A DNA stretch of 64,000 bases from a virus (IMGVR_UViG_3300044608_002890), one strand, 5' to 3'. Positions 1 to 30,746 are shown, numbered from the stretch's first letter. Translations and numbers: made by a program. Notes: a model not told the origin generated them from the sequence alone.

Positions 1-1
1 G

Positions 2-148
2 TTTGACTGTGAAAAAGGTAGAGAAAAGTTCGCCCAGTTGATTGTTCGGGAATGTGCTGGTATCTACGATAAAATTGACAATGGCAACTTACATATGGGC
101 ACAGATGACTATCTTCTAGCACTTCAGAAACATTTCGGGGTTGAATAA
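2..148 (+). CDS. Paralog-array protein copy 1 (5' truncated by window edge)
   Basis: Manual translation ...EKFAQLIVREC...QKHFGVE*; same motifs as the other copies. Confidence 0.8.
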   Translation, partial: FDCEKGREKFAQLIVRECAGIYDKIDNGNLHMGTDDYLLALQKHFGVE

Positions 149-157
149 CCCTACAGG

Positions 158-186
158 TTGACAGGTCTTTAGAACACTGCTATACT
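158..186 (+). promoter_or_regulatory. Early sigma70-type promoter
   Basis: TTGACA-17nt-TATACT, TG extended -10. Confidence 0.8.
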
Positions 187-216
187 ATGGTTACAGTAAA
201 CAACAAGGAGCAAGAG

Positions 217-420
217 ATGAATGTGATGAAAGGTCCAATGATTCAAGGTCCCTTGTTCGAAGTCACTGTCACAGAGTATGAGCGTGGTTGGGGACAGCGG
301 CTCTGCCCAGATGAGACAAGAATCTTCACCAACCGTCAAGATGCTGAGGCCTATGCTCGGACACGGAACTCAGGTACGGCAGAGATCTATTGGCGAGCAG
401 ACATCAGGCAGTTTGGTTGA
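217..420 (+). CDS. Hypothetical early protein
   Basis: ORF with AAGGAG RBS just downstream of promoter; start moved to ATG 217. Confidence 0.7.
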   Translation: MNVMKGPMIQGPLFEVTVTEYERGWGQRLCPDETRIFTNRQDAEAYARTRNSGTAEIYWRADIRQFG

Positions 421-433
421 TAAGGAGCAGGAG

Positions 434-748
434 ATGAACGAACGAATTCGAGAACTTGCTGAACAAGCGGGTATTCCTGCCATCGACGGTGTATGGGACT
501 ACAATGACAGAAATCTTTTAGTAAAAGATGGCGGTGAATGGCGGACGGCTGTGCCATCTGAAATCATCGGCACCATGATCAACTCTGAAAAAGGACTCGA
601 AAAGTTCGCAGAGTTGATTGTAAAGGAATGTGCCGAAATTTCAGAACAAAGTCAATGGAGTGAAGCCAAGGGCGAATATTATGAAGGCTTTAATGAGGCT
701 ATGATTTATGTTTCCAATAAGATTAAAGAACATTTTGAGATTAGTTAA
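434..748 (+). CDS. Paralog-array protein copy 2
   Basis: MNERIRELAEQAG...EKFAELIVKEC...EHFEIS; AAGGAG RBS; start moved from 278 to 434. Confidence 0.85.
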   Translation: MNERIRELAEQAGIPAIDGVWDYNDRNLLVKDGGEWRTAVPSEIIGTMINSEKGLEKFAELIVKECAEISEQSQWSEAKGEYYEGFNEAMIYVSNKIKEHFEIS

Positions 749-957
749 TGAATAACGACAGCGACCAAACTATGAAACTAGTGGGGATGTACGACGCCCA
801 TGTCATCACCTGCCCCAAGCATGGCGAACACCCGCACTGCATCATCAGCAACATCAAAGGCCACGAAGGTGTGTGGTGTCAGATTTGCTGGCTGGAGAGC
901 CTTGGCACGCCATTTCCCATGCAAAAGAAACGACTGCCTTTTGGAGATGGAACATGA
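748..957 (+). CDS. Small Cys/His-rich hypothetical protein (possible Zn finger)
   Basis: CPKHGEHPHC...CQIC; TAATG coupling. Confidence 0.65.
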   Translation: MNNDSDQTMKLVGMYDAHVITCPKHGEHPHCIISNIKGHEGVWCQICWLESLGTPFPMQKKRLPFGDGT

Positions 958-1043
958 ACCCTAATCCAACCTGTGAGTTGAATTGTAGATTTATATATGG
1001 GCACGTTGCCAAAAAGATTCCTAAATATTTAGAAATTGAATAA
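954..1043 (+). pseudogene. 29-aa ORF, apparent truncated paralog of 8966..9187
   Basis: MNPNPTCELNCRFIYG vs MKHPNPDCDRHCKFVYG; coupled to both neighbours. Confidence 0.4.
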
Positions 1044-1360
1044 TGAATGATGAAAAGCTATTAGAGCTGGCTGCTAAAGCTATAGGTGAGCCCTACTATG
1101 AACATGTGCCTGGTGGCGGACTATATTTGTCTAATGGGGTGTATTGGAACCCACTCACCGACGACGGGGATGCGCTGCGGCTAGCGGTGAAGTTAGAGGT
1201 GCAGGTTGTCATTCCTGGCGACAACAAAGATGTATATGCTGGAAAACTCTTGTTTGACGCTTTTGAGCCAGTAAATGGGGACCCCTACGCCGCCACCCGC
1301 CGAGCCATCGTCCGCGCTGCTGCCGATATGGCAAAAGCAGAGGGTTGGGTTCAATCGTGA
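1043..1360 (+). CDS. Phage WNPLxDDGDALRLAVKL family protein (ABA-sandwich/DUF2591-like)
   Basis: Motif WNPLTDDGDALRLAVKL and N-terminal LLELAAKA. Confidence 0.65.
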   Translation: MNDEKLLELAAKAIGEPYYEHVPGGGLYLSNGVYWNPLTDDGDALRLAVKLEVQVVIPGDNKDVYAGKLLFDAFEPVNGDPYAATRRAIVRAAADMAKAEGWVQS

Positions 1361-1599
1361 ACCCACGAATTAAACAACTTGCTGAACAGGCTTGGATTGA
1401 TACTGAGGAAACCTTTGGTAGCTTTGTTGATGAAATTGGTGAAATAAATTATACTTTTCTACATGCCTATGACCAAGAGTTCGCCCAGCTAATTATTTTG
1501 GACTGCCTAGAAATCTGCAAACAGCGAGAGCAAGCAAATCTTTATGGTGTTAAAGAGGCACTGGCCACAATTAGGGAACATTTTGAGGTTGAACTATGA
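1357..1599 (+). CDS. Paralog-array protein copy 3
   Basis: GTG start; NPRIKQLAEQA...QEFAQLIILDC...EHFEVEL. Confidence 0.8.
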   Translation: MNPRIKQLAEQAWIDTEETFGSFVDEIGEINYTFLHAYDQEFAQLIILDCLEICKQREQANLYGVKEALATIREHFEVEL

Positions 1600-1733
1600 T
1601 GGAGTTTTTTGTAATTGTTAGCAGCTTTTTAATGCTTTTGCTTAGCATTATGTTGGTGTTTGTATTTGACGACTTAGTGTTAAATAAACATTTTACCAAG
1701 AAAGTACATAAGCTACTAGGAGTCGACGAGTGA
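1596..1733 (+). CDS. Small single-TM protein
   Basis: Manual translation MMEFFVIVSSFLMLLLSIMLVFVF...; ATGA/GTGA overlaps on both sides. Confidence 0.55.
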   Translation: MMEFFVIVSSFLMLLLSIMLVFVFDDLVLNKHFTKKVHKLLGVDE

Positions 1734-1960
1734 ACCCACGAATTCGAGAACTGGCTGAACAGGCTGGGTTTATTCCGGGTATTATGGGTCTGAACCGATT
1801 CACTTACTTTGATCCAGAAAAATTCGCCGAGTTGATTGTGAGAGAATGTATGGATCTCTTGGAAGATTACACAACAGACGTCAACGTGGGTGGTATTCAA
1901 TATAACGTATTGAGTGCCGATGAGACTTTGCAGAAACATTTCGGAGTTGAACGTGATTAG
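1730..1960 (+). CDS. Paralog-array protein copy 4
   Basis: NPRIRELAEQAG...EKFAELIVREC...KHFGVERD. Confidence 0.85.
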   Translation: MNPRIRELAEQAGFIPGIMGLNRFTYFDPEKFAELIVRECMDLLEDYTTDVNVGGIQYNVLSADETLQKHFGVERD

Positions 1961-2102
1961 GTGGTACTGGCACAAGTTTATGCAGCATATTGGCTACAGA
2001 AAAGTCTGGTACTTTCCTACCCGACACATGTCAGGCCTAGGTGACTTTTGGTGCTGGGAATACAGACCTGACCTGAAGAAGGGTGTGTATTGCAGCAGAT
2101 GA
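1953..2102 (+). CDS. Small Trp-rich hypothetical protein
   Basis: GTG at 1953 served by GGAG in the 3' box of copy 4. Confidence 0.5.
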   Translation: MIRWYWHKFMQHIGYRKVWYFPTRHMSGLGDFWCWEYRPDLKKGVYCSR

Positions 2103-2124
2103 ACTTATAGTAATACCCCTTCAC

Positions 2125-2153
2125 TTGACTCGGGTATTGTTTGGTGCTATAAT
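2125..2153 (+). promoter_or_regulatory. Early sigma70-type promoter
   Basis: TTGACT-17nt-TATAAT with GGTGC before -10. Confidence 0.85.
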
Positions 2154-2183
2154 TCAAGTATGTTAGATAAAAAAGGAACTGCA

Positions 2184-2414
2184 ATGCGTATCATACGAGA
2201 CCTGGGGCTAGTTCGAGTCATCAGTCTGCAACACGATCCCCGTCGTCACGGAGCGGACATAGTGGTTCAGACCCGTGAAACTACTGATTCAGACTGGGTC
2301 GTAGCCTGCAAATTCAACAGTTTTACTTCGGACAGTGCGTATACCAATGCTGTCGAAGCAGCCTTCGATTGTGTCAGGGAGCTGGCTCATAAAAAAGCTC
2401 GAGCTTTTGCTTGA
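2184..2414 (+). CDS. Hypothetical early protein
   Basis: AAGGA RBS downstream of promoter. Confidence 0.65.
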   Translation: MRIIRDLGLVRVISLQHDPRRHGADIVVQTRETTDSDWVVACKFNSFTSDSAYTNAVEAAFDCVRELAHKKARAFA

Positions 2415-2439
2415 CAACCGGTTGTGCTGGTGCTAGAAT
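2411..2439 (+). promoter_or_regulatory. Early sigma70-type promoter
   Basis: TTGACA-17nt-TAGAAT with GGTGC. Confidence 0.8.
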
Positions 2440-2469
2440 CGTAGTTATTCAAAATCCAAGGAGTTCGTC

Positions 2470-2769
2470 ATGGCCAAGTTATTGATTGTTACCCAGGTTC
2501 TGGAAAATTATGGTTCTGAGGATAACCCCTGGTGGAAAGCCAAGGGCGGCAGCGAGTACGTCATTAAAAACTTTACAGCCTTCAACGCTGTCAACGCTAC
2601 CGTGCAGAGTCTACGTCATGAAATCGAAATCGACAATCCCCTGTACTCTGAGTACATCATCAGCTGGGAAGTGGTTGCCGACGACTACCTGACCGACTTC
2701 GAACGTAGCCAGCTGGTGTACGAGGGTCGCATAGACTTCCCGGCCCAGGAACTTAGGATCACAGCATGA
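2470..2769 (+). CDS. Conserved phage hypothetical protein
   Basis: AAGGAG RBS; TQxxENYG...WKAKGGSEY motif typical of T4-like accessory genes. Confidence 0.75.
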   Translation: MAKLLIVTQVLENYGSEDNPWWKAKGGSEYVIKNFTAFNAVNATVQSLRHEIEIDNPLYSEYIISWEVVADDYLTDFERSQLVYEGRIDFPAQELRITA

Positions 2770-2990
2770 TGAGCAACGAATCTCAGGCAAGATGGCATGC
2801 CACCAAGATAATCTGGACATACTTTAGCATCTTAGCGGCGTTATTGGTTATAGGCTATATCGATTTATTTTATATGGCTGTTGCAGTGGTTGTGATGCTT
2901 GCTTTAATCATAGCCATTGCCATATACAGGGATGCCTACCATGATAAACTATGGGAGTTGAAGAGAAGTGACCAATCAAGAACTGATTAG
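2766..2990 (+). CDS. Small membrane protein (2 TM)
   Basis: Two hydrophobic segments; coupled start. Confidence 0.6.
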   Translation: MMSNESQARWHATKIIWTYFSILAALLVIGYIDLFYMAVAVVVMLALIIAIAIYRDAYHDKLWELKRSDQSRTD

Positions 2991-3011
2991 TGCCCTCGAT
3001 GGAGACAAGCA

Positions 3012-3359
3012 ATGAGCCTGGACATTCGTCTCATGGTCATGCGACCCACTGCTATCTTTGATGAAAACATTACCCATAATCTGGGCCCTATGGCCAGTGA
3101 GGTAAAATTGGACCATGGACTGACCCTGTACAACATTCTCTGGCGTCCAGACGAATGCGAACCTCCCTTGCACAAAGCCAGCGACATCGCAGAGCTGCTG
3201 GACCAAGCCCTGAATATTCTGATTCAGGACAAGGATCGTCTTAAACAGTATAATCCGGTGAATAGTTGGGGCAATTACTATAGTCTGGCCGAACTGGTGA
3301 TTAAATACAGAAATGCTGCCAGAGCAGAACCCCAGGCTGATATCGAGGTTTGCCGATGA
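3012..3359 (+). CDS. Conserved phage hypothetical protein (NITHNL motif)
   Basis: MSLDI...NITHNL...LWRPDE...WGNY; GGAG RBS. Confidence 0.75.
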   Translation: MSLDIRLMVMRPTAIFDENITHNLGPMASEVKLDHGLTLYNILWRPDECEPPLHKASDIAELLDQALNILIQDKDRLKQYNPVNSWGNYYSLAELVIKYRNAARAEPQADIEVCR

Positions 3360-3574
3360 CATATACCATACACATCAGACGTGGTCGATTGGTCATAGAT
3401 GATCCGCAACGACGCTGTTACAATGGCTGCTATTTTGCATCACACATGGAATGGTCTGACTGGGAACCATGGTTTCAAAATGATTTTTATGCTACCCGAG
3501 AAGCAGCAGAATATACAGCTCGATTATTTGAACGGGATGACCAACAGTTTAAAGTTGTGGAGGTAGCAGCATGA
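3356..3574 (+). CDS. Hypothetical protein
   Basis: ATGA overlap with upstream gene; GGAGG serves next gene. Confidence 0.6.
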   Translation: MTYTIHIRRGRLVIDDPQRRCYNGCYFASHMEWSDWEPWFQNDFYATREAAEYTARLFERDDQQFKVVEVAA

Positions 3575-3783
3575 ACGAACGAATTCGACAACTGGCTCTT
3601 GAGGCTGGATATCAAGCAGATATGTTTGGCTTTGGCCATTGGGACCAGCCCGAATGCCAAAAGTTTGCCCTGTTGATTGTCAAGGAATGTGCTGATGTGG
3701 CTAAAGAAACAAGATGGGCTGTGCCTCCTAGCCAAGAGCAGATTGCCAGAGGAATCCAACAACATTTCGGAGTTCGAGAATGA
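3571..3783 (+). CDS. Paralog-array protein copy 5 (apparent chimera)
   Basis: N-half like copy 11, C-half identical to copy 10. Confidence 0.85.
   Translation: MNERIRQLALEAGYQADMFGFGHWDQPECQKFALLIVKECADVAKETRWAVPPSQEQIARGIQQHFGVRE
3686..3774 (+). repeat. 89-bp exact direct repeat, copy A
   Basis: AATGTGCTGATGTGG...CATTTCGGAGTT identical to 5712..5800. Confidence 0.95.
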
Positions 3784-3902
3784 CGGACGGTGACCGGGCC
3801 GGTTGGTGGGCCGTTGTATATCTACTTATGGTAGGTGCGGCCGCTTACTTTACCATGTTTATGGTCATTTTCAGTTTTATTAAACAAATGTTTTGGAGTT
3901 GA
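3780..3902 (+). CDS. Small single-TM protein
   Basis: Manual translation MTDGDRAGWWAVVYLLMVGAAAYFTMFMVIFSFIKQMFWS; ATGA overlap. Confidence 0.55.
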   Translation: MTDGDRAGWWAVVYLLMVGAAAYFTMFMVIFSFIKQMFWS

Positions 3903-4023
3903 TAATGAGCCAAGAATTTATCCGTAGTCAGGTAGAGTATTATAGAAAGCATTTGAACTGTGGTTCCAGTCGAGACTGGAATCTAATTCTGGGACTATAT
4001 CATTATTATAAAGGATTACTTAA

Positions 4024-4248
4024 ATGAACAAACGAATTCAAAAACTTTTTAACGAGGCTGGTTTTCATCAGCCGGAAATGGAACGACTTGGTATTGAAGA
4101 CAAGTTTGAAAAGTTCGCCCAGTTGATTGTTATGGAATGTGAGCGGGTAGTATGTGATAAGTTTGATGAGACTGAACCGTGGATGTATCCCGGCGATTTG
4201 ATGAAACACTTTGGTATTAATAAAGAAGTAAAAAATGACAACGATTAA
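4024..4248 (+). CDS. Paralog-array protein copy 6
   Basis: MNKRIQKL...EKFAQLIVMEC...KHFGI. Confidence 0.85.
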   Translation: MNKRIQKLFNEAGFHQPEMERLGIEDKFEKFAQLIVMECERVVCDKFDETEPWMYPGDLMKHFGINKEVKNDND

Positions 4249-4447
4249 AAATCCATTTCCCGGTGTTACTCGCTTAGAAAACGGTGATATTGTTTATGAG
4301 GATCATATCTGGTGGAGTGAAGAATATTACAACGCCGGTCGTAATCCAATTAGTGTAAACTTTGACGATCCCGTCAATTGTAGATTTACTTTTGATAAGG
4401 ATGGAAACCTTAAAAATGTGGAAATGAAGAATGAACGAACGAATTAA
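4235..4447 (+). CDS. Hypothetical protein
   Basis: Overlapping coupled ORF in operon. Confidence 0.6.
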   Translation: MTTIKNPFPGVTRLENGDIVYEDHIWWSEEYYNAGRNPISVNFDDPVNCRFTFDKDGNLKNVEMKNERTN

Positions 4448-4673
4448 AGAACTAATTGAACAAGCAACAGAATCTACAGGCTTCTTGACCGCAGGCGATA
4501 GTGTTAAACCTTTACCCGTAAGAGAATTTAATAAAGAAAAGTTCGCCGAGTTGATTGTTCGGGAATGTATTGCTATCTGTAAAGATGTAGATGGCGAAGA
4601 TAACATTGATGCTAGGTCAGGTAGACATGATTGTGCTGTAGAGATTCAAGAACATTTCGGAGTTGAAGAATGA
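4431..4673 (+). CDS. Paralog-array protein copy 7
   Basis: MNERIKEL...EKFAELIVREC...EHFGVEE. Confidence 0.85.
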   Translation: MNERIKELIEQATESTGFLTAGDSVKPLPVREFNKEKFAELIVRECIAICKDVDGEDNIDARSGRHDCAVEIQEHFGVEE

Positions 4674-4888
4674 ACGAACGAATTATTAAACTAGGATTAG
4701 AGTCTGGAATGCTTAACTATATTGATAACGAGACTCCTCGGCATTATTTTCTATGTGGAAACGCTGATGAACAATGCCTAGAAAAGTTTGCTGAGTTGAT
4801 TGTACGGGAATGTTGCCAGAAACTGGAGAATGACGGCATGGTTGAAGTTGCCATGGAAATGAAACAACATTTCGGAGTTGAAGAATGA
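4670..4888 (+). CDS. Paralog-array protein copy 8
   Basis: MNERIIKL...EKFAELIVREC...QHFGVEE. Confidence 0.85.
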   Translation: MNERIIKLGLESGMLNYIDNETPRHYFLCGNADEQCLEKFAELIVRECCQKLENDGMVEVAMEMKQHFGVEE

Positions 4889-5199
4889 AACTAAGTGAGT
4901 TGCATCGTGTAGTAAATCTTTATCACCGTGAAGGTCATTACGAAGACCCAGAGGTCATGATTATGATTAAACTGCCATATACAACTGTTGGTTCTCGTCC
5001 CATGGTCGCTGTACGAAGTACAAACATGGGATTTGATTGGGAAAAGGGTAAGTTTATTATCACACCAGACGAAGACCTAACCCCCGCTGATAGGGACTTT
5101 GCTGAGAAAATGCGTGACATGCAAGAAAAATGCTCTCATGCTTTATTAGAGAATCGTCGTCTAAAGGCTGAAATTAAAAAGTTAAAGAGCAAGCCATGA
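4885..5199 (+). CDS. Hypothetical protein with C-terminal coiled coil
   Basis: ATGA overlap; heptad-like C-terminus. Confidence 0.7.
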   Translation: MKLSELHRVVNLYHREGHYEDPEVMIMIKLPYTTVGSRPMVAVRSTNMGFDWEKGKFIITPDEDLTPADRDFAEKMRDMQEKCSHALLENRRLKAEIKKLKSKP

Positions 5200-5594
5200 A
5201 CGAAGAACTATTACAACGATTAGAGAGAGAGGCAGAAAAGATCACTCTGGACATGCCAGCAAGCCTTGATGATACTGAATTTACCAAGATATTCAATCTA
5301 GAGTTTGCTCGGTTAATTGTTGCTGAATGTATTGATACTGTATTGGATTCCAGCGTAGAATATACCACCAGACCCCGCATAGCACAGGAACTAAGTCAGC
5401 ATTTCGAATTAGTTAACGATAACAAATTACCCAATCCACCGACTAATTATGGTACATTTAATCAGGGTGTCATGTCCGAGCGTAATCGCATCGTAAATTT
5501 ATTAATGATTCAACACGAGATGGCCAAGGATCGACATAATTATTGGAAGGTTGCTGCAGAATTAATTCAGGCCGATGTAGCGAGTGACACATGA
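5196..5594 (+). CDS. Paralog-array protein copy 9 with extra C-terminal domain
   Basis: LEFARLIVAEC...QHFELV followed by about 55 additional aa. Confidence 0.75.
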   Translation: MNEELLQRLEREAEKITLDMPASLDDTEFTKIFNLEFARLIVAECIDTVLDSSVEYTTRPRIAQELSQHFELVNDNKLPNPPTNYGTFNQGVMSERNRIVNLLMIQHEMAKDRHNYWKVAAELIQADVASDT

Positions 5595-5809
5595 ATAAAA
5601 ATATTGAAAACTGCCTATATCAAGCAGGGCTAACAGCACAGGGCTGTTGGGATGAACTGGATGACTATGCTAGGGAAGGTATAGAAAAGTTCGCCGAGTT
5701 GATTGTTCGGAAATGTGCTGATGTGGCTAAAGAAACAAGATGGGCTGTGCCTCCTAGCCAAGAGCAGATTGCCAGAGGAATCCAACAACATTTCGGAGTT
5801 GAAGAATGA
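5591..5809 (+). CDS. Paralog-array protein copy 10
   Basis: MNKNI...EKFAELIVRKC...QHFGVEE. Confidence 0.85.
   Translation: MNKNIENCLYQAGLTAQGCWDELDDYAREGIEKFAELIVRKCADVAKETRWAVPPSQEQIARGIQQHFGVEE
5712..5800 (+). repeat. 89-bp exact direct repeat, copy B
   Basis: Identical to 3686..3774. Confidence 0.95.
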
Positions 5810-6018
5810 ACACCATTAGATTATGTAAGCGAGAAATAGAGAGAATTAAAGAACTGTTTGATACTATTCATACCACTGGCAATGTAGGATTTGTTACTCT
5901 GACTCAACATGATGAAGACTCTGGTATTGGCTATGAACTCAGAGCAACCTTTCAGATTACTCACAAGAATACCGATGGTGATTTTGTTGTCACCATTACT
6001 GACCACAGGGACTGGTAA
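5806..6018 (+). CDS. Hypothetical protein
   Basis: ATGA overlap using GGAG of copy 10. Confidence 0.65.
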   Translation: MNTIRLCKREIERIKELFDTIHTTGNVGFVTLTQHDEDSGIGYELRATFQITHKNTDGDFVVTITDHRDW

Positions 6019-6182
6019 TGGGAAATACCTACGAAGTTAAAGCCTGGGAATCCGCAGTGAACAGTGACCACTTCTACTGGTTAGAGATATACCGAGGCGA
6101 GAGCTTGCTAAAAGCGTTATACCGTGTTTGGTGGTGTAAGCGCAATGGTTGGAAGTGCATCAAACTGGAATATCGTCCATGA
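6018..6182 (+). CDS. Small hypothetical protein
   Basis: Manual translation MGNTYEVKAW...KLEYRP; TAATG and ATGA coupling. Confidence 0.6.
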   Translation: MGNTYEVKAWESAVNSDHFYWLEIYRGESLLKALYRVWWCKRNGWKCIKLEYRP

Positions 6183-6385
6183 ACGACCGAATTCGAGAAC
6201 TTGCTCTCCAGGCCGGATACCAGGCAGACATGTTCGGCCTGGGTCATTGGGACCAGCCCGAATGCCGAAAGTTCGCTGAATTGATCGTAGAAGAATGCTG
6301 TGCACAACTGCTGGACCGTGGTCCATACAGCAACGGTGATTGGGCCAAATATCGTATTCGAAAACACTTTGGACTCATGGAATAA
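6179..6385 (+). CDS. Paralog-array protein copy 11
   Basis: MNDRIRELALQAG...KFAELIVEEC...KHFGLME; start moved from 6149. Confidence 0.85.
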   Translation: MNDRIRELALQAGYQADMFGLGHWDQPECRKFAELIVEECCAQLLDRGPYSNGDWAKYRIRKHFGLME

Positions 6386-8969: not shown

Positions 8970-9187
8970 AACATCCGAATCCTGATTGTGACCGTCATTG
9001 TAAATTTGTGTATGGATATAGCGTGACTACTGCCATGTACTATAATCCTGTCTATGACAAGCATGGTAATAATTTGAATCCAGACGGCAATATTACAAGT
9101 GGAACCATTGACTGTATAGAGTGCCATAAACGATGGTCATACTCTACACAATATGATAAAACAACATTTAGTGAGGTTATACAATGA
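8966..9187 (+). CDS. Cys-rich (Zn-binding) hypothetical protein
   Basis: CxxxC and CxxC pairs; ATGA overlaps. Confidence 0.7.
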   Translation: MKHPNPDCDRHCKFVYGYSVTTAMYYNPVYDKHGNNLNPDGNITSGTIDCIECHKRWSYSTQYDKTTFSEVIQ

Positions 9188-9651
9188 ACAACTACGAAAA
9201 ACATGCCATGATAGAATTTAGAGCAGCAGGTTGGACTGATGAGCATGGTAAATTTAAAGATGAAATGCAGGAAGCTATTTGCAAGCATGTTCTAGAGTTA
9301 CTAGATGTCTTTCATGGAGAAGGACATTCTGGAACTACTGCGCCTTATACTATTGATCTATTCAAGAAACTTGCTATGTTCGAACCTATTGTTCCTTTGA
9401 CTGGTGAAGATTGGGAATGGGTAAATGTAGCAGAACAGAATGGCGGACCTTTGTGGCAAAACAAGCGTTGCAGTCATGTGTTCAAAGATAACGATGGTGC
9501 ATATGATATCAATGGCATCGTTTTCTATGATTGGTATGTGAATGAAAAAGGTGAGATACGTAAAAGTTATTTCACTGGCCAAGGAAGCCGAGTGCCAGTA
9601 ACTTTTCCCTATGTACCTAAGTCTGAGTATAGAGAAAGACCCAACGAATGA
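9184..9651 (+). CDS. Conserved phage hypothetical protein
   Basis: EGHSG...FEPIVPLTGEDWEW...QNKRCSHVFKD motif. Confidence 0.75.
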   Translation: MNNYEKHAMIEFRAAGWTDEHGKFKDEMQEAICKHVLELLDVFHGEGHSGTTAPYTIDLFKKLAMFEPIVPLTGEDWEWVNVAEQNGGPLWQNKRCSHVFKDNDGAYDINGIVFYDWYVNEKGEIRKSYFTGQGSRVPVTFPYVPKSEYRERPNE

Positions 9652-10475
9652 AGATAGCAATCTGTAGCGACCTACATCTAGAGTTTGGTGATATCGTTCT
9701 TAATAACGATGGTGCTGACGTTTTAATTCTTGGCGGTGATATCCTGACTGCGCAGGAGCTACATGACTTCAAAGCAGATGATGTTAAATTTGTGGATGAA
9801 CTGACTAGACGAGGTACTGCAGAACGATACAGGGAATTTTTAGCCAGGTGCAGTGCAGAGTTTCCTCATGTAATCTATATTGCTGGCAATCATGAGTTCT
9901 ACCATAGCAAGTATCCTGATGCCTATAATTACCTAGAAGAAGAATGTTCTGCCTTTAATAATGTACATTTTCTAGAACAGAGTTGCAAAGAAATTTGTGA
10001 TGTTACCTTTATTGGTGCCACTTTGTGGACTGATATGAACAACGGTGATAGAACAACTTTGATGATGGTTCAAGAGATGATGAATGATTACAGAATCATT
10101 CGTAATAGTACTCGTAAATATGCCAGACTTACTCCCTCAGACACTGTAATTAGACATAAAAATACTCTCAAGCATATAAAAGCCGTTGTTGATTATGATA
10201 CAAATAAAAAGTATGTGGTTGTAGGACATCATGCTCCAAGCAAGAAAAGTGTCAAGCCAAGGTATGCCGAAGATGTAGAAATGAATGGTGCATACAGTAG
10301 TGATCTTGAGGATTTTATCTTAGCTCATCCTCAGATCAAGTTGTGGACACACGGACATACCCATGACGTATTTGATTACAATATAGGCAATACACGTATT
10401 GTCTGTAATCCAAGAGGATACATTGGCTATGAATCACGTGCTGAAGAATTTACTCTAAAGTATGTAGAAGTATAA
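9648..10475 (+). CDS. Calcineurin-like metallophosphoesterase
   Basis: SDLH, GGD, GNHE, GHH, HGHTH motifs. Confidence 0.9.
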   Translation: MKIAICSDLHLEFGDIVLNNDGADVLILGGDILTAQELHDFKADDVKFVDELTRRGTAERYREFLARCSAEFPHVIYIAGNHEFYHSKYPDAYNYLEEECSAFNNVHFLEQSCKEICDVTFIGATLWTDMNNGDRTTLMMVQEMMNDYRIIRNSTRKYARLTPSDTVIRHKNTLKHIKAVVDYDTNKKYVVVGHHAPSKKSVKPRYAEDVEMNGAYSSDLEDFILAHPQIKLWTHGHTHDVFDYNIGNTRIVCNPRGYIGYESRAEEFTLKYVEV

Positions 10476-24630: not shown

Positions 24631-24888
24631 ATGGCAAATGTCATTCCTTTTCCGATGCCCAATCGGAAGCTACATTTATTTAATGATGAAGAAATATTTG
24701 TGACCGTTGCTGCTATCAACGTCTTTGGTGCTGCGGAATCTGGCAAGGCCAGCGCATCTAATCTCTATGCCTACGAAGCAGAATTTGTCGTAGCCTGTGT
24801 AAAACAGCTCAAAGACTGCGGACTCATGAGCAATCGTGCCCGAGTAATTTGTCGTCATATCATTGAAAGATACAAGGCCTCACAATGA
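24631..24888 (+). CDS. Hypothetical protein
   Basis: ATG after AGGAG; NVIPFP motif; start moved from 24529. Confidence 0.65.
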   Translation: MANVIPFPMPNRKLHLFNDEEIFVTVAAINVFGAAESGKASASNLYAYEAEFVVACVKQLKDCGLMSNRARVICRHIIERYKASQ

Positions 24889-25919
24889 AAATTGGATTTT
24901 GCTGCAAGTGGATTGACAATGTCGACCAAATCGATGGATTCAAGCCCCAGGACGATGCCAAACGTTTGAACACTAGAGTGACCACCGTAGCCTGGCTCAA
25001 TCGCCAGACTCAGGAAGTTGCCGAACAACGCCTCTGGGATCTTATGGTTCACAACATTGAAAGCATCAGATTGCTGGTGGAAAGGGTAGGTAATCTTCAT
25101 GAACATCTTAGGATGGTGCGTCTTGGTAGCGATATCTTGCCTGTTTATACCGAACCTACCTGGAGCTATTTTTGGCGTCGTCATGACGTTAGGGACTATT
25201 GTGAGCGCCATCTTCCTGTTGTGGGCGAGCTTGCTCGTAGGCGGGGCGTTCGCCTTAGCTTTCATCCTGGTCAGTTTGTTGTTTTGGCTTCAGAGAGCGC
25301 TGACATAGTAAATCGCAGTCTAGAGGAGTTCGAGTATCATGTTGACATGGCCCGTTGGATGGGATTTGGCAAAACCTTTCAGGATTTTAAAATCAATGTT
25401 CACATCGCAGGTCGGCAAGGAGCCGAAGGAATTCAAAGAGTGTGGTCCAGACTCAGCACCGAGGCCCAACGCATGCTCACCATCGAAAATGATGAGACTC
25501 GTTGGGGCTTGGAAGAAAGTCTCAAACTTAAAGACCTTTGTGCTCTTGTTCTCGATATCCACCATCATTGGATTCGTACTGGCGAATATATCCAACCCCA
25601 GGATTCACGAGTTCGTGAAGTCATTGAATCTTGGCGGGGTGTACGCCCTGCGCTCCATTATAGCCTGAGCCCCGAAAGCATCGTTGCAGATCATTGCCCT
25701 AACACCATGCCTTGTCTGAGCACCTTGGTGCAGAGCGGCAAGAATCGCATGAAGCTCCGAGCTCATAGCAATTTTTACTGGAATGATGCTTGCAACGATT
25801 GGGCTCTGAGCTTCGAAGATTTTGACATTCAATGCGAATCCAAAGCCAAAAATCTAGCTAGTTTTGCTTTGGCTGAAAGGCTAAATACAAATAAATCAAT
25901 CCTTCTTGAAGCCGCTTAA
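24885..25919 (+). CDS. uvsE: UV damage endonuclease
   Basis: IGFCCK, RLGSD..P, HPGQF.VL, H, IENDE, D.HHH, H, E.KAK motifs. Confidence 0.92.
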   Translation: MKIGFCCKWIDNVDQIDGFKPQDDAKRLNTRVTTVAWLNRQTQEVAEQRLWDLMVHNIESIRLLVERVGNLHEHLRMVRLGSDILPVYTEPTWSYFWRRHDVRDYCERHLPVVGELARRRGVRLSFHPGQFVVLASESADIVNRSLEEFEYHVDMARWMGFGKTFQDFKINVHIAGRQGAEGIQRVWSRLSTEAQRMLTIENDETRWGLEESLKLKDLCALVLDIHHHWIRTGEYIQPQDSRVREVIESWRGVRPALHYSLSPESIVADHCPNTMPCLSTLVQSGKNRMKLRAHSNFYWNDACNDWALSFEDFDIQCESKAKNLASFALAERLNTNKSILLEAA

Positions 25920-26252: not shown

Positions 26253-26990
26253 ATGGCAAAAAAGATTCATGCAGTACAAGAAGCAAACCAGCCTAAGGTC
26301 ACCATTACTAATAAACTAAAAATTAGAATTGATGATCTTACGGTCATAGAGCCATTAACTGAGAACCAACGGAGATTTTTCGACAGTTATGATGATAGTC
26401 GCATCATGTTACTGCATGGTGTGGCCGGAACCGGTAAAAGCTACATAGCCCTGTACAAAGCACTGGAGGAAGTACTAGATCATGGCAACCCATATCATCA
26501 GGTAGTCATAGTAAGGAGCGCAGTACCCAGCCGAGAAATTGGTCATTTGCCCGGCGACGAAAAGGAAAAGACCGAGGTATATCAGCTACCCTATCAGGAC
26601 ATCTGCCAGAATTTGTTTGGCAGGCACGATGCCTTTCAGAGATTGTGTGAACAGGGTACTGTGAAATTCATGATAACAAGTTTTGTTCGAGGCATCACGC
26701 TGGACAACAGTGTGATCATAGTCGACGAATCACAGAACATGACTGACATGGAACTTAACTCCATCATCACCCGAGTGGGTGAGAACAGCAAGATCATATT
26801 CTGTGGTGACTTTAGACAGACCGATCTCTACAAGAAGACCGATATGTCTGGACTCAAGAAGTTCATGGTCATAGCCGACATGATGCCAAGTTTCAGAGTC
26901 ATAGAATTTGACGTCAAGGACATAGTAAGGTCCGACATCGTCAAGGAATACATTCTTGCCAGATTAAGTTATGAGGAACAGTACGCATAA
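26253..26990 (+). CDS. phoH: PhoH-family ATPase
   Basis: G.AGTGKS, IGHLPG, RG.TLD, IVDESQN, TRVG...K....GD..Q.D, RS..VK. Confidence 0.95.
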   Translation: MAKKIHAVQEANQPKVTITNKLKIRIDDLTVIEPLTENQRRFFDSYDDSRIMLLHGVAGTGKSYIALYKALEEVLDHGNPYHQVVIVRSAVPSREIGHLPGDEKEKTEVYQLPYQDICQNLFGRHDAFQRLCEQGTVKFMITSFVRGITLDNSVIIVDESQNMTDMELNSIITRVGENSKIIFCGDFRQTDLYKKTDMSGLKKFMVIADMMPSFRVIEFDVKDIVRSDIVKEYILARLSYEEQYA

Positions 26991-27136: not shown

Positions 27137-27781
27137 ATGGCCGATCAGTTTGATTTTGATTTCAGACTTGATCATGTACAGAAACTTTTACCCAGGATCA
27201 AAAATCCACAGGAATGGCACGAAAGTTTAAGTGAGGTTCTACCACAATACGACATCACAGATGTTCTTAGGACATCGGCGTTCATAGCACAATGTGCACA
27301 CGAAAGCGGTGGCTTTACCATGCTTTCGGAAAATCTCAACTACAGCGCACAGGGACTCATGGGTGTATTCAAAAAATACTTTCCTACCCTGGAATTAGCC
27401 AATGCCTATGCACGGCAGCCCGAAAAGATTGCCAACAGAGTCTATGGTGGCAGAATGGGCAATGGTGATGAATCCAGTGGCGAAGGCTGGAAGTTTCGTG
27501 GACGTGGTCTCATACAGTTGACTGGCAAAGACAACTACAGACGCTGCAGCGAATATCTGTTTGAAGACTGGACCTTATTGGAAGTACCTGACTGCCTGAC
27601 CCAGCCTTACTACGCACTGCACAGCGCCTGTTGGTTCTGGAGTGCCAATAAATTAAACGCCTTGGCCGATCAGCAAGACATTAGAATGATGACCAAACGC
27701 ATCAACGGTGGTTTCATTGGTCTTGAAGATAGAGTCAAACACTATAACCATGCACTAGAAGTTCTACAAGACCTACACTAA
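27137..27781 (+). CDS. Glycoside hydrolase family 19 endolysin
   Basis: FIAQCAHESGGF...ENLNYS...FRGRGLIQLTGKDNY...INGG..GL.DR. Confidence 0.92.
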   Translation: MADQFDFDFRLDHVQKLLPRIKNPQEWHESLSEVLPQYDITDVLRTSAFIAQCAHESGGFTMLSENLNYSAQGLMGVFKKYFPTLELANAYARQPEKIANRVYGGRMGNGDESSGEGWKFRGRGLIQLTGKDNYRRCSEYLFEDWTLLEVPDCLTQPYYALHSACWFWSANKLNALADQQDIRMMTKRINGGFIGLEDRVKHYNHALEVLQDLH

Positions 27782-29886: not shown

Positions 29887-30399
29887 ATGAGTTGGGTTGA
29901 TAATCTCAAAGAAACCATACCAGACTATGCCAAAGATACCAGACTTAATCTGGATGCAGTAATTAAAAGAAGCAGTATTCCAGCCAACGAAGCCGAAGCC
30001 ATTGCAGTGGCAGCAGCATTTGCTACTGGCAATACCAAGTTCTGGACCTGGCTTCATAGTGTGATCACAGAACGTGCCGAGGCCGATGCTGCTCTTACTG
30101 CGGCCAGTCTAATGGCCATGAACAATGTCTGGTATCCCTATGTCGAAATGGCTGACGATGAAAATCTCAAAGGACTGCCAGCACAGTTGCGAATGAATGC
30201 TATTTCTACTCACGGTGGAACCACCAAGGCTCGTTTTGAAGCCTATAGTCTGGCTGCTAGTATTGTTGGTAAGTGTCATTTCTGCATCAAAGCTCACTAT
30301 GAGACTTTGAAAAAAGAAGGTTATACCACCGAACAGTTGCGAGACATTGGTCGTATTGCTGCGGTCATAACAGCAGTATCAAGGGTTTTGAATAATTAA
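29887..30399 (+). CDS. ahpD: Alkyl hydroperoxide reductase AhpD
   Basis: PDYAKD.RLNL, MNNVWY, FE..SLA.S..GKCHFC..H motif. Confidence 0.92.
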   Translation: MSWVDNLKETIPDYAKDTRLNLDAVIKRSSIPANEAEAIAVAAAFATGNTKFWTWLHSVITERAEADAALTAASLMAMNNVWYPYVEMADDENLKGLPAQLRMNAISTHGGTTKARFEAYSLAASIVGKCHFCIKAHYETLKKEGYTTEQLRDIGRIAAVITAVSRVLNN

Positions 30400-30410
30400 T
30401 ATATAATGTA

Positions 30411-30725
30411 TAGTTGTATGAAGCAAGCAGAAACATGCTGCGGACGCGGGTTCGACTCCCGCCTGGTCCACCAGAAGTATATTGCACTTCACTGATAAGG
30501 AAGACTGGTCGGCTGTATTCAACTGGCTAGTGCAGTATACTTCTGATGGGCCAGACATGGTTTCGACGGGGCAAATAGTAAGTAAGTGGACAACTCGTTA
30601 GGCGAAGGACGTAATCCTAGCAAATCAAATAGACGCAAACGACGACTATTTCTATCAGGACCTTAAGCTAGCCGCTTAAACCTGACGGGGTTTTGGCAGT
30701 TCACCTTGTTACCAAACGAACTGCC
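30411..30725 (+). ncRNA. ssrA: Circularly permuted (two-piece) tmRNA
   Basis: T-arm GCGGG-TTCGACT-CCCGC and CTGGTCC-A-CCA (30446-30473) precede 5' acceptor strand GGGCCAG (30548-54) with G3:U70; tag GCA AAC GAC...GCC GCT TAA = ANDDYFYQDLKLAA (30635-79); outer ends approximate. Confidence 0.9.
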
Positions 30726-30746
30726 TATCACACACAAGGAGTTTTA

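What the first reader, a model, noticed from the sequence alone, without database searches (positions are those of the whole stretch)
2..6385. Array of 11 modular paralogs: three DNA-conserved boxes flanking two hypervariable segments
Seen: 11 small genes in 6.4 kb (starts about 2, 434, 1357, 1730, 3571, 4024, 4431, 4670, 5196, 5591, 6179) share only three short blocks. These are a 5' box (ATGAACGAACGAATT, MNERI), a middle box (GAAAAGTTCGCCGAGTTGATTGT...GAATGT, EKFAELIVREC) and a 3' box (ACATTTCGGAGTTGAAGAATGA, HFGVEE*). The two intervening segments differ freely in length and sequence. Several boxes are conserved at third codon positions, more than protein constraint alone requires. Unrelated small genes are interspersed. 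Inference: a constant helical scaffold displays two swappable variable loops, diversified by RecA/UvsX-type recombination at the boxes without a dedicated recombinase or RT. This could be a combinatorial library of early host-interaction or anti-defence binders. I know no function assigned to this family.
Basis: partly seen in the sequence, partly recalled or inferred. Interest (0 to 1): 0.85.

Follow-up and report, generated by a model that had tools for sequence, protein, structure and literature searches.

The report
Box-shuffled mini-protein array in freshwater phage
An uncultured freshwater T4-like phage carries eleven copies of an undescribed ~75-residue protein gene, and its three short constant blocks, conserved even at silent DNA positions, are the points where half-genes, whole genes and gene blocks are swapped between copies and between phages.

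Summary
There are eleven same-strand copies in w2-6385, and all three boxes occur far above chance. Across 80 unrelated viral contigs the boxes use one codon far above background (for example GCC 86% against 24%, CGA 94% against 15%, GGA 100% against 22%). Variable-segment codons in the same genes match background.

Natural variants show recombination at the boxes:
- a 2,026-bp indel that removes five copies, in five samples;
- a 1,179-bp block with no mismatches inside a ~9%-diverged relative;
- precise presence or absence of c6179;
- V1 and V2 assorting independently across the family (r = 0.14).

The variable segments are not hypermutating. Same-type modules have dN/dS of about 0.1 at dS of about 0.7. 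They are old, discrete modules that get reassorted. AlphaFold2 gives one fold for two copies with unrelated V segments (helix, beta-hairpin, helix, helix), with no solved relative.

The 3' box also serves as Shine-Dalgarno site and ATGA stop/start. No reverse transcriptase is present, and no RNA structure explains the conservation. The protein's function is unknown. The region is early/accessory and holds a Tad3 Thoeris inhibitor.

The closest known systems are PeSL cassettes and gp38 conserved motifs. This is a new variant of a known kind. This scan met the same family earlier on other DNA, with similar readings.

The parts
2..148 (+). copy c0002, cut at its 5' end by the window edge (middle box at 23-56, tail HFGVE*)
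   Evidence: A related full-length copy with a c0434-like V1 is seen in L091.
434..748 (+). copy c0434 (104 aa, long V1). 17 otherwise ~100% identical contigs lose identity with the window 12 nt upstream of its ATG.
1357..1599 (+). copy c1357 (GTG start, most diverged boxes)
1730..1960 (+). copy c1730 (GTG start overlapping the stop of the 45-aa ORF 1596-1733)
3571..3783 (+). copy c3571, a chimera: N-half ~81-85% DNA identity to c6179; C-half identical to c5591 from the end of the middle box to the 3' box
   Evidence: families D5, D6
4024..4248 (+). copy c4024
4431..4673 (+). copy c4431. AF2 model: a1 3-12, hairpin 13-19/28-33, a2 35-51, a3 59-76 (pLDDT 85.8).
4670..4888 (+). copy c4670. AF2 model: a1 3-12, hairpin 15-17/26-28, a2 34-54, a3 58-68 (pLDDT 88.6). 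Its V1 occurs with the c5591-type V2 in relative L113.
5196..5594 (+). copy c5196: a family member fused just after its 3' box to an unrelated ~55-aa domain that is a separate gene elsewhere
5591..5809 (+). copy c5591. Its exact protein is on record on many contigs. Its C-half is the right-hand repeat of the 2,026-bp indel.
6179..6385 (+). copy c6179, present or absent as a precise cassette (missing in L082 and L087/L122)
3659..3783 (+). left copy of the 125-nt direct repeat (middle box + V2 + 3' box); crossover substrate of the indel
   Evidence: family D5, spacing 2026
5685..5809 (+). right copy of the 125-nt direct repeat
4652..4684 (+). example of the composite junction: 3' box (HFGVEE, GGAG Shine-Dalgarno, ATGA stop/start) fused to the next 5' box (MNERI). 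Also the left end of the 1,179-bp zero-mismatch block shared with L082.
4651..5829 (+). block c4670-orf4885-c5196-c5591, identical (0 mismatches) in the otherwise diverged relative L082
158..186 (+). sigma-70-like promoter (TTGACA-17-TATACT, 11/12) outside the boxes. Similar sites lie at 2125-2153 and 2411-2439.
   Evidence: consensus match only
1596..1733 (+). non-family 45-aa hydrophobic ORF that ends in a 3'-box-like tail (LLGVDE) with a GTGA overlap into c1730
   Evidence: family D4

Best explanation
The array is a multigene family of small acidic proteins (about 70-80 aa) in the early/accessory region of an uncultured freshwater T4-superfamily myovirus. Each gene has five parts: a 5' box (MNERI, start of helix 1), V1 (a beta-hairpin module), a middle box (EKFAELIVREC, core of helix 2), V2 (end of helix 2, turn, start of helix 3), and a 3' box (HFGVEE). 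The three boxes are short stretches of near-identical DNA shared by all copies in all carrier phages. They act as homology arms. The phage's own homologous recombination crosses over in them and exchanges half-genes at the middle box. At the 3'/5' junction it exchanges whole genes, blocks of genes and unrelated cargo genes. This happens within a genome and between co-infecting phages. The 3' box also carries the Shine-Dalgarno site and the ATGA stop/start overlap, so whatever is inserted downstream stays translationally coupled. Shown: the anatomy, the silent-site conservation, the natural recombinants with ends at boxes, the unlinked V1 and V2, purifying selection on the modules, and the shared predicted fold. 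Inferred: that UvsX-type recombination is the enzyme system. Inferred: that the boxes keep their DNA consensus because modules with consensus arms can spread between genomes, while the junction is additionally constrained as a translation signal. Inferred with low confidence (about 0.3): that the proteins are early host-directed binders or inhibitors whose specificity is set by the V1 hairpin and the V2 turn.
For: Anatomy: 11 copies and no others in the window.
Silent-site conservation, 232 copies from 80 unrelated contigs, against long-ORF codon usage:
- middle box: AAG .90/.37, GCC .86/.24, GAG .84/.28, TTG .82/.25, ATT .93/.45, TGT .90/.53;
- 5' box: AAC .91/.42, CGA .94/.15;
- 3' box: CAT .99/.57, GGA 1.0/.22, GTT .97/.33.
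V2 codons of the same genes match background. The bias persists in copies that could not have seeded the search. Synonymous divergence is 0.29 in boxes against 0.48 in same-type V modules of the same gene pairs.
Coupling: 186 of 232 copies end in ATGA, and 193 of 232 have an SD-like motif in the tail.
Recombinants:
- c3571 is a chimera of c6179-like and c5591-like halves.
- Contigs from five samples lack 2,026 bp, with the crossover inside the repeat that starts at the middle box.
- w4651-5829 is identical in L082, while the right flank is ~9% diverged and the left flank is non-homologous.
- c6179 is a precise indel.
- 6 of 8 distinct internal breakpoints lie within 12 nt of a box.
Reassortment: V1/V2 identity correlation is 0.137, with 36 discordant against 13 concordant pairs. 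One V2 type is seen with three V1 types.
Modules are functional: dN/dS is 0.13 (V1) and 0.09 (V2) at dS ~0.7.
Fold: two copies share one topology (pLDDT 88.6 and 85.8).
Carriers: 5 of 5 large carriers have T4 Gp23, both complete ones have a RecA-type gene, and the window holds gp32 and gp59.
Region: Tad3 lies at w9184-9648, E 4e-33.
Against: No experiment or read-level data shows exchange happening; all events are inferred from assembled metagenome contigs. There are few independent breakpoints, and two of them (w181, w2075) are not at boxes. Many breakpoints are also plain gene boundaries, where selection would keep any viable recombinant. Codon identity in the middle box is the same within and between contigs (0.724 against 0.716). 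So there is no sign of local homogenisation, and direct selection on the nucleotide sequence for an unknown reason is not excluded. Box silent sites are constrained but not identical (pS 0.29-0.36). UvsX was not found in the 64-kb window itself. The protein's function has no direct evidence.
Confidence: 0.78

Rival explanations
1. The boxes are conserved mainly as expression signals. The 3'/5' junction is an SD-spacer-ATGA-start element, and the first codons tune initiation. Recombination at them is a by-product of the resulting identity.
For: 186 of 232 copies end in ATGA and 193 of 232 have GGAG-like motifs at the right distance. GGA-GTT, which spells GGAG, is used in 97-100% of HFGV tails. 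Non-family genes also end in the same tail (family D4; fusions).
Against: This does not explain the middle box, which sits mid-gene, about 100 nt from any start, and is equally constrained. CGA, a rare codon, is used at 94% in the 5' box. The middle box does not pair with the initiation region in full-length folds (probability 0.00-0.13).
Confidence: 0.3
2. The middle box, or all boxes, are conserved because they form a functional RNA or DNA structure, or a free-standing binding site.
For: In isolation the junction and the middle box can form a duplex of -15.9 kcal/mol against -8.3 +/- 2.6 for shuffles. The box alone can form a small hairpin that uses the rare CGG codon.
Against: Natural boxes are no more stable than their own synonymous recodings (mean z 0.04). 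GCCGAG stays fixed whatever the 3' partner is, so there is no covariation. Whole-gene folds have ordinary z-scores. The motif occurs only on the family strand and in the family frame, 211 of 211.
Confidence: 0.07
3. The N-terminal box is a capsid-targeting propeptide like that of T4 internal proteins. On this reading the array encodes a varied set of small proteins packed in the head and injected with the DNA to counter host defences.
For: The T4 prohead protease cuts after L/I-x-E. The T4 targeting sequence is the first 10 residues, with processing determinants at positions 8 and 10. T-even internal proteins are diverse small defence inhibitors that share only that sequence (PMC9026906, PMC3012670). 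The family consensus has L8-A9-E10. 64% of 198 members keep L/I8 + E10, and 81% have some [LI]xE in the first 13 residues against ~11% expected. The family is confined to T4-type phages.
Against: The motif is missing in 19% of members and in 6 of 10 window copies at the 8/10 register. Unlike internal proteins, the family also shares the middle and C-terminal boxes and one fold. The T4 targeting positions 4 and 7 are not alike. The genes sit behind sigma-70-like promoters in an early-type operon. No match to any Pfam family.
Confidence: 0.1
4. This is an ordinary paralog family. Box conservation is explained by amino-acid constraint and codon bias, and the structural variants are metagenome assembly artefacts.
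For: All relatives are assembled contigs. Repeats can mislead assemblers. One odd context (L125) could be a chimera.
Against: Codon choice in the boxes departs from background by up to 6-fold, while V segments of the same genes do not. The 2,026-bp variant recurs in five samples, and the long form in at least seven, from JGI, ENA and NCBI assemblies. The repeats are at most 125 nt, shorter than the k = 141 of the ENA contigs named k141. The zero-mismatch block in L082 is not a join at a repeat but a change in divergence.
Confidence: 0.03
5. The variable segments are made by targeted hypermutation, such as a diversity-generating retroelement.
For: None beyond the pattern of constant and variable segments.
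Against: No RVT_1 match in five carrier genomes, two of them complete, and none among the window's large ORFs scanned. V segments differ in length (18-50 and 14-53 aa) and cannot be aligned between types. Same-type modules show dN/dS ~0.1.
Confidence: 0.01

Closest known systems
PeSL (promoter-early stem-loop) cassettes of T4-type phages (Arbiol et al. 2010, PMC2839356; Comeau et al. 2014, PMC4122927)
   Same: Short repeated sequences in the hyperplastic early regions of T4-like phages. They end in an SD and a start codon, flank small ORFan genes, and mark the ends of insertions, deletions and replacements between close relatives. Homologous recombination is the proposed engine.
   Different: PeSLs are intergenic and consist of a sigma-70 promoter plus a terminator-like stem-loop. 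The repeats here are translated. They carry no promoter or stem-loop and belong to one protein family. They include an intragenic anchor that allows half-gene swaps. They are conserved across very distant phages, not only within a pair.
gp38 adhesins of T-even phages: glycine-rich motifs separating hypervariable segments (Trojet et al. 2011, PMC3157838)
   Same: Conserved motifs form the structural core and separate variable segments. Exchanges occur within or near the conserved motifs and give chimeric proteins drawn from a shared pool across phages.
   Different: gp38 is a single-copy virion tail-fibre adhesin with Gly-rich motifs. The family here is a tandem multi-copy set of small cytoplasmic-type acidic proteins with a different fold, and its end box doubles as a translation-coupling signal.
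T4 internal proteins IPI/IPII/IPIII with their capsid-targeting sequence (PMC3012670, PMC9026906)
   Same: Small proteins (IPI* is 76 aa) that are very diverse in T4-type phages and share a conserved N-terminal ~10 residues with L/I-x-E at 8-10. At least one is an anti-restriction factor.
   Different: Internal proteins share only the N-terminal sequence, whereas this family shares three boxes and one fold. There is no sequence or fold match. Packaging was not tested.
Silent-cassette antigenic variation such as Neisseria pilE/pilS (from my own knowledge, not checked here)
   Same: Conserved DNA segments bracket variable mini-cassettes and guide RecA-dependent exchange, giving combinatorial protein variants.
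   Different: That system uses one expressed locus with silent donor copies in a bacterium. Here all copies are intact, coupled and presumably expressed, and exchange is also between genomes.

Membership tests
PeSL regulatory cassette | repeat lies between genes (non-coding) | tested here: not met
   All three boxes are inside reading frames. The middle-box motif is in the family frame in 211 of 211 occurrences.
PeSL regulatory cassette | repeat contains a strong sigma-70-type early promoter | tested here: not met
   The 11/12 promoter-like sites (w158, 2125, 2411, 6623) lie outside the boxes. No hexamer pair lies in the box consensus.
PeSL regulatory cassette | repeat contains a stable stem-loop acting as terminator or attenuator | tested here: not met
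   Terminator-like sites number 8 against 6.9 expected, and none is at a box. The box hairpin is not favoured over synonymous recodings.
PeSL regulatory cassette | SD and start codon at the 3' end of the repeat | tested here: met
   GGAG, a 7-nt spacer and ATGA in the 3' box. 186 of 232 copies end in ATGA.
PeSL regulatory cassette | indels and replacements between close relatives end at the repeats | tested here: met
PeSL regulatory cassette | mini-circles formed by exchange between neighbouring repeats | not testable with these tools
   Needs outward-facing PCR or reads.
gp38-type conserved-motif / hypervariable-segment design | conserved motifs separate variable segments and form the structural core | tested here: met
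   The boxes map to helix 1, the centre of helix 2 and the end of helix 3 in two models.
gp38-type conserved-motif / hypervariable-segment design | glycine-rich motifs; tail-fibre adhesin | tested here: not met
   The boxes are not Gly-rich. The genes lie in the early ORFan region, not in the tail-fibre module.
T4 internal proteins (capsid-targeting sequence) | N-terminal ~10-residue propeptide with L/I-x-E processing site at 8-10 | tested here: inconclusive
   64% of 198 members, and 4 of 10 window copies.
T4 internal proteins (capsid-targeting sequence) | members share only the targeting sequence | tested here: not met
   The middle and C-terminal boxes and the fold are shared as well.
T4 internal proteins (capsid-targeting sequence) | protein is packed in the head and injected | not testable with these tools
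   Needs virion proteomics.
Diversity-generating retroelement | reverse transcriptase plus a template/variable repeat pair of equal length | tested here: not met
   No RVT_1 in 5 carriers. V segments differ in length and cannot be aligned between types.
Any curated protein family (Pfam, PHROGs, NCBIfam, PADLOC) | profile match above threshold | tested here: not met

The most novel reading that the evidence does not exclude
The boxes are kept at one DNA consensus because they are the address labels of a shared module pool. On this reading V1 and V2 modules are units of selection in their own right and spread among freshwater T4-type phages by homologous recombination through consensus arms. Each phage thereby assembles a combinatorial set of two-module early (or injected) inhibitors aimed at variable host defences. 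That would be exon-shuffling by sequence-addressed homology in a virus, with no dedicated enzyme.
Probability: 0.3. Interest if true: 0.85.

Novelty: new variant of a known kind. Interest (0 to 1): 0.68.

Why it matters
The family is very large: more than 7,600 clusters at 90% identity and about 6,800 at 50%. It is confined to uncultured freshwater T4-type phages and is absent from every curated library and from the searched literature.

It gives an unusually clean natural case of how short conserved coding stretches organise gene and half-gene exchange in viruses. Breakpoints are resolved to the base in wild populations, and silent-site conservation cannot be put down to protein constraint, codon bias or RNA structure.

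It extends the PeSL and gp38 ideas from non-coding cassettes and a single adhesin to a whole translated multigene array. It also makes one question testable: is recombination competence itself maintained by selection?

If the proteins prove to be anti-defence factors, the module repertoire would be a large untapped catalogue of small inhibitors.

Tried and rejected
Searches and tools that gave nothing:
- Pfam, PHROGs, NCBIfam and PADLOC scans of the copies gave no real hit.
- megablast of w1-8000, and tblastn of two copies (c4431 at E <= 0.01, c4670 at E <= 10), against 50,697 phage records: no match. No cultured phage in that set carries the family.
- Profile search against PDB sequences: best E 0.12, to designed helical repeats; not meaningful.
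- Foldseek against PDB with both models: best E 1.0 and 0.24. VIA-align wide search: best Z 5.1 over 42 residues, within the noise range the tool gives for helical models. BFVD returned only family members.
- Atlas searches: only viral hypothetical clusters and no usable named cluster.
- Genome collection of 185,579 species: only 19 loci, all in freshwater MAGs and mostly on short contigs, read here as binned phage DNA.
- Literature search for the motif strings: no occurrence of HFGVEE, KFAELIV or EKFAELIVREC.

Ideas tested and rejected:
- RNA pairing of the middle box with the initiation region.
- Hairpin selection in the middle box.
- Per-genome concerted evolution as the cause of box identity.
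- A free-standing regulatory site.
- DGR-type mutagenesis.
- Longer fused forms as a clue to function. The 54 found are junction fusions with mixed cargo (tandem copies, a Lar-like domain, a truncated halogenase, DUF7352) and no recurrent partner.

- The atlas fold library was unavailable.
- The records behind L081 and L113 are not held for whole-record searches.
- Repoila et al. 1994 could not be read.
- No whole genome is held for the window.

Full report
WHAT IS THERE. The window comes from a T4-superfamily myovirus. Baseplate genes of the gp5, gp6, gp8 and gp48 types lie at 41-64 kb. gp32, gp59, RNase H and DNA ligase are also present. The best isolate match for gp6 is only 36% identical (Methylophilales phage Melnitz and Pelagibacter phage HTVC008M). 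No phage record matches the array DNA.

A profile built from them finds these eleven and nothing else in the 64 kb. The first copy is cut by the window edge. The three boxes are well above chance. No Pfam, PHROG, NCBIfam or PADLOC family matches.

HOW WIDE THE FAMILY IS. None carries a Pfam domain or any name beyond 'hypothetical protein'.

In IMG/VR at least 477 loci encode it. Of the 80 fetched, 69 hold 2 to 13 same-strand copies. Five large carriers (178-355 kb, two of them complete) all encode a T4-type Gp23 capsid protein.

Among 185,579 species genomes the family appears only on 19 loci, all in freshwater MAGs and mostly on short contigs. Cultured phages in the 50,697-record set lack it. 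The motif strings occur in no paper of the library.

SILENT-SITE CONSERVATION. I took 232 copies from the 80 unrelated contigs and compared codon use at each conserved residue with the codon use of long ORFs in the same contigs. All three boxes prefer one codon far above background:
- middle box: AAG .90 against .37, GCC .86/.24, GAG .84/.28, TTG .82/.25, ATT .93/.45, TGT .90/.53;
- 5' box: AAC .91/.42, CGA .94/.15, ATT .89/.45;
- 3' box: CAT .99/.57, GGA 1.00/.22, GTT .97/.33.

The result holds with one copy per contig. It also holds for copies that could not have seeded the database scan. Codons in the V2 segments of the same genes follow background.

In gene pairs that share a V-module type, synonymous divergence is 0.48 in the module and 0.29 in the boxes. 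Over all between-contig pairs the boxes stay at 0.36. Codon identity in the middle box is the same within a contig (0.724) as between contigs (0.716), so local concerted evolution is not the cause.

WHAT THE 3' BOX ALSO DOES. 186 of 232 copies end in ATGA, where the stop overlaps the next start. 193 of 232 have a GGAG-like motif at Shine-Dalgarno distance. In the window most copies are coupled in this way to the next gene, whether or not that gene belongs to the family. A non-family 45-aa ORF (w1596-1733) ends in the same kind of tail. This dual use explains part of the silent-site constraint at the junction. It does not explain the middle box.

RECOMBINATION AT THE BOXES, WITHIN THE GENOME. 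c3571 matches c6179 over its N-half (about 81-85% DNA identity). It is identical to c5591 from the end of the middle box to the 3' box, and unrelated to c5591 upstream of that point.

RECOMBINATION AT THE BOXES, BETWEEN WILD RELATIVES. Looking up contigs that encode the exact proteins gave about two dozen related loci.
- (a) Contigs from five samples are 99.8% identical to the window on both sides but lack 2,026 bp (about w3784-5809). This removes c4024, c4431, c4670 and c5196 and merges c3571 with c5591. The crossover lies inside the identical stretch that begins at the middle box. The long form is seen in at least seven other samples.
- (b) In the diverged relative L082, w4651-5829 (1,179 bp, c4670 to c5591) has no mismatch at all. 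The sequence to the right is about 9% diverged, mostly at silent sites. The sequence to the left is a different V2. The left end is the first base of a 3' box, and the right end falls within 21 nt after a 3' box.
- (c) c6179 is absent from L082 and L087/L122, from its ATG to the next gene.
- (d) Seventeen loci that are otherwise about 100% identical to the window lose all similarity 12 nt upstream of the c0434 start.
- (e) The copy upstream of the shared block in L082 has the V2 of c0434 with another V1.
- (f) In the more distant L113, one copy joins the V1 of c4670 to the V2 of c5591/c3571, and another has the V1 of c5591 with a third V2.

A systematic scan gives eight distinct internal breakpoints, and six lie within 12 nt of a box. 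At most about 24% of the array lies that close to a box (my arithmetic from the box lengths). Six or more of eight then has a binomial probability near 0.004. The events are few, some pairs of ends belong to one event, and several ends are also gene boundaries, so this figure is only a rough guide.

REASSORTMENT ACROSS THE FAMILY. For 155 complete copies the correlation between V1 identity and V2 identity is 0.137. Among pairs with one half at least 70% identical, 36 have an unrelated other half (under 30%) and 13 agree. The 155 copies hold 79-120 V1 types and 109-113 V2 types, and most types with several members pair with more than one partner.

THE VARIABLE SEGMENTS ARE NOT HYPERVARIABLE. 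Same-type modules from different contigs have dS of about 0.70-0.75 and dN/dS of 0.13 (V1) and 0.09 (V2). Choosing pairs by amino-acid identity biases dN down, but the gap is large. The diversity is a big stock of old, selected modules. It is not rapid mutation. No reverse transcriptase is present in five carriers.

THE PROTEIN. AlphaFold2 on a 115-sequence alignment gives c4670 a confident model (pLDDT 88.6, pTM 0.74): helix 3-12, strands 15-17 and 26-28, helix 34-54, helix 58-68. c4431, with unrelated V1 and V2, gives the same order of elements (pLDDT 85.8): helix 3-12, strands 13-19 and 28-33, helix 35-51, helix 59-76.

The 5' box is helix 1, the middle box is the centre of helix 2, and the HF of the 3' box ends helix 3. 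V1 supplies the hairpin. V2 supplies the end of helix 2, the turn and the start of helix 3. A constant frame is thus supported, but the variable parts are structured elements and make up about two thirds of the protein.

No solved structure resembles the models. The viral library returns only family members. The proteins are acidic (mean net charge -6), and the box Cys is replaced in about a tenth of members.

Long forms are rare (54). All are fusions at the 3' junction with mixed cargo, including tandem copies. c5196 in the window is such a fusion.

RIVALS TESTED.
- An RNA or DNA structure: the middle box does not pair with the start region in whole-gene folds. Its possible hairpin is no more stable than synonymous recodings and shows no covariation.
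- A free-standing site: the motif never occurs outside the family frame or on the other strand.
- Assembly artefacts: the variants recur in independent samples and assemblers, and the repeats are shorter than the assembly k-mer of the ENA contigs.
- A capsid-targeting role for the N-terminal box, by analogy with T4 internal proteins. This remains open. The L/I-x-E site at positions 8-10 is present in 64% of members and some such site in 81%, but the family shares far more than an N-terminal tag.

MECHANISM, AND WHAT IS INFERRED. Shown: identical short coding stretches sit exactly where natural exchanges begin and end, the two variable modules assort freely, the modules are under purifying selection, and the 3' box keeps any downstream gene coupled.

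Inferred: the enzyme system is the phage's own homologous recombination. A RecA-type gene is present in both complete carriers, and gp32 and gp59 are in the window.

Inferred: the pan-family DNA consensus persists because a module with consensus arms can enter any genome that holds the family, so such modules outlast their genomes. The junction is additionally held by its translation role.

The function is a guess at about 0.3. I read the proteins as early host-directed binders. The reasons are their size and charge, the sigma-70-like promoters, and neighbours such as a Tad3 Thoeris inhibitor, an ADP-ribosyltransferase in L082 and a SAM lyase in L113.

COMPARISON WITH KNOWN SYSTEMS. PeSL cassettes and the gp38 conserved-motif design work alike. 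The array here is a member of neither, because it fails their defining features (see the membership rows). It is a new variant of recombination-guided modular shuffling in T4-type phages.

Earlier notes of this scan described the same family on other genomes with the same closest comparisons. I reached the box, chimera and PeSL/gp38 readings from my own tests before reading the two follow-up reports. What this window adds:
- base-level population variants;
- the zero-mismatch block transfer;
- the dN/dS result;
- the within-versus-between-genome test;
- the rejection of RNA structure;
- two fold models.

Noticed in passing
window 30374-30730 (+): The phage encodes a tmRNA. Rfam beta_tmRNA scores 98.2 bits (cut-off 84) and tmRNA_permuted 124.8 bits (cut-off 47). 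ARAGORN gives the tag peptide ANDDYFYQDLKLAA. The betaproteobacterial type hints at the host group, in line with the Rhodoferax and Burkholderiaceae MAG scraps that carry the family.
   Followed up: partly
window 9184-9651 (+): A 155-aa protein matches Pfam Tad3, the type I Thoeris inhibitor (E 4e-33, 114 bits against a cut-off of 27). It is followed by a calcineurin-like phosphoesterase at 9648-10475.
   Followed up: partly
window 5196-5594 (+): c5196 is a fusion. Residues 1-~73 are a family member that stands alone elsewhere (P0154 ends in HFGVK). Residues ~78-132 are an unrelated small-gene family that stands alone as 68-76-aa proteins (P0002, P0003, P0122). The joint is just after the 3' box.
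   Followed up: partly
window 1-421 versus L081 and 16 other loci: The window's own genome differs from all other near-identical contigs upstream of c0434: it has c0002 plus a 77-aa gene (w187-420) there. In L091 the same 77-aa gene follows a GIY-YIG-type nuclease gene and is followed by an extra 28-aa ORF.
   Followed up: partly
L125:1-8379: An exact c1730 copy with its upstream 45-aa ORF (97.4% DNA identity over 494 bp) sits next to genes with T5-type Pfam hits (Phage_T5_A2, Phage_T5_dNMPase) and shares nothing else with the window. This is either transfer into a different phage or a chimeric contig. The break (w2075) is not at a box.
   Followed up: partly
L087:1485-1988, L118:1345-1848, L091:27-338: Homing-endonuclease-type genes (SegE GIY-YIG; a GIY-YIG-like 103-aa ORF) lie a few kb upstream of, or next to, the array in relatives. 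First-reader notes from other genomes mention an HNH gene that ends in the family's 3' tail. Whether such nucleases cut at or near the boxes is unknown.
   Followed up: no
family-wide (V2 segments), e.g. window 4431-4673: About a third of members carry 3 or more Cys, often one 4 residues after the box Cys and one ~8 residues before the HF His. A metal site in a subset of modules is possible, but 43% have a single Cys.
   Followed up: no
P0281, P0303, P0311 (database proteins): Rare long forms join a family member at its HFGV tail to a Lar-like restriction-alleviation domain (E 3e-6, just under the cut-off), to a halogenase that lacks its first ~160 profile positions, or to DUF7352.
   Followed up: partly
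window 24885-25919 and 26253-26990 (+): A UvdE-type UV endonuclease (E 2e-33) and a PhoH-like protein (E 2e-49) lie in the middle of the window. A glycoside hydrolase 19-like ORF is at 27137-27781.
   Followed up: no
L082:11313-12050: The diverged relative carries an ADP-ribosyltransferase (Pfam ADPrib_exo_Tox, precomputed) just downstream of its array, at a place where the window has other genes.
   Followed up: no
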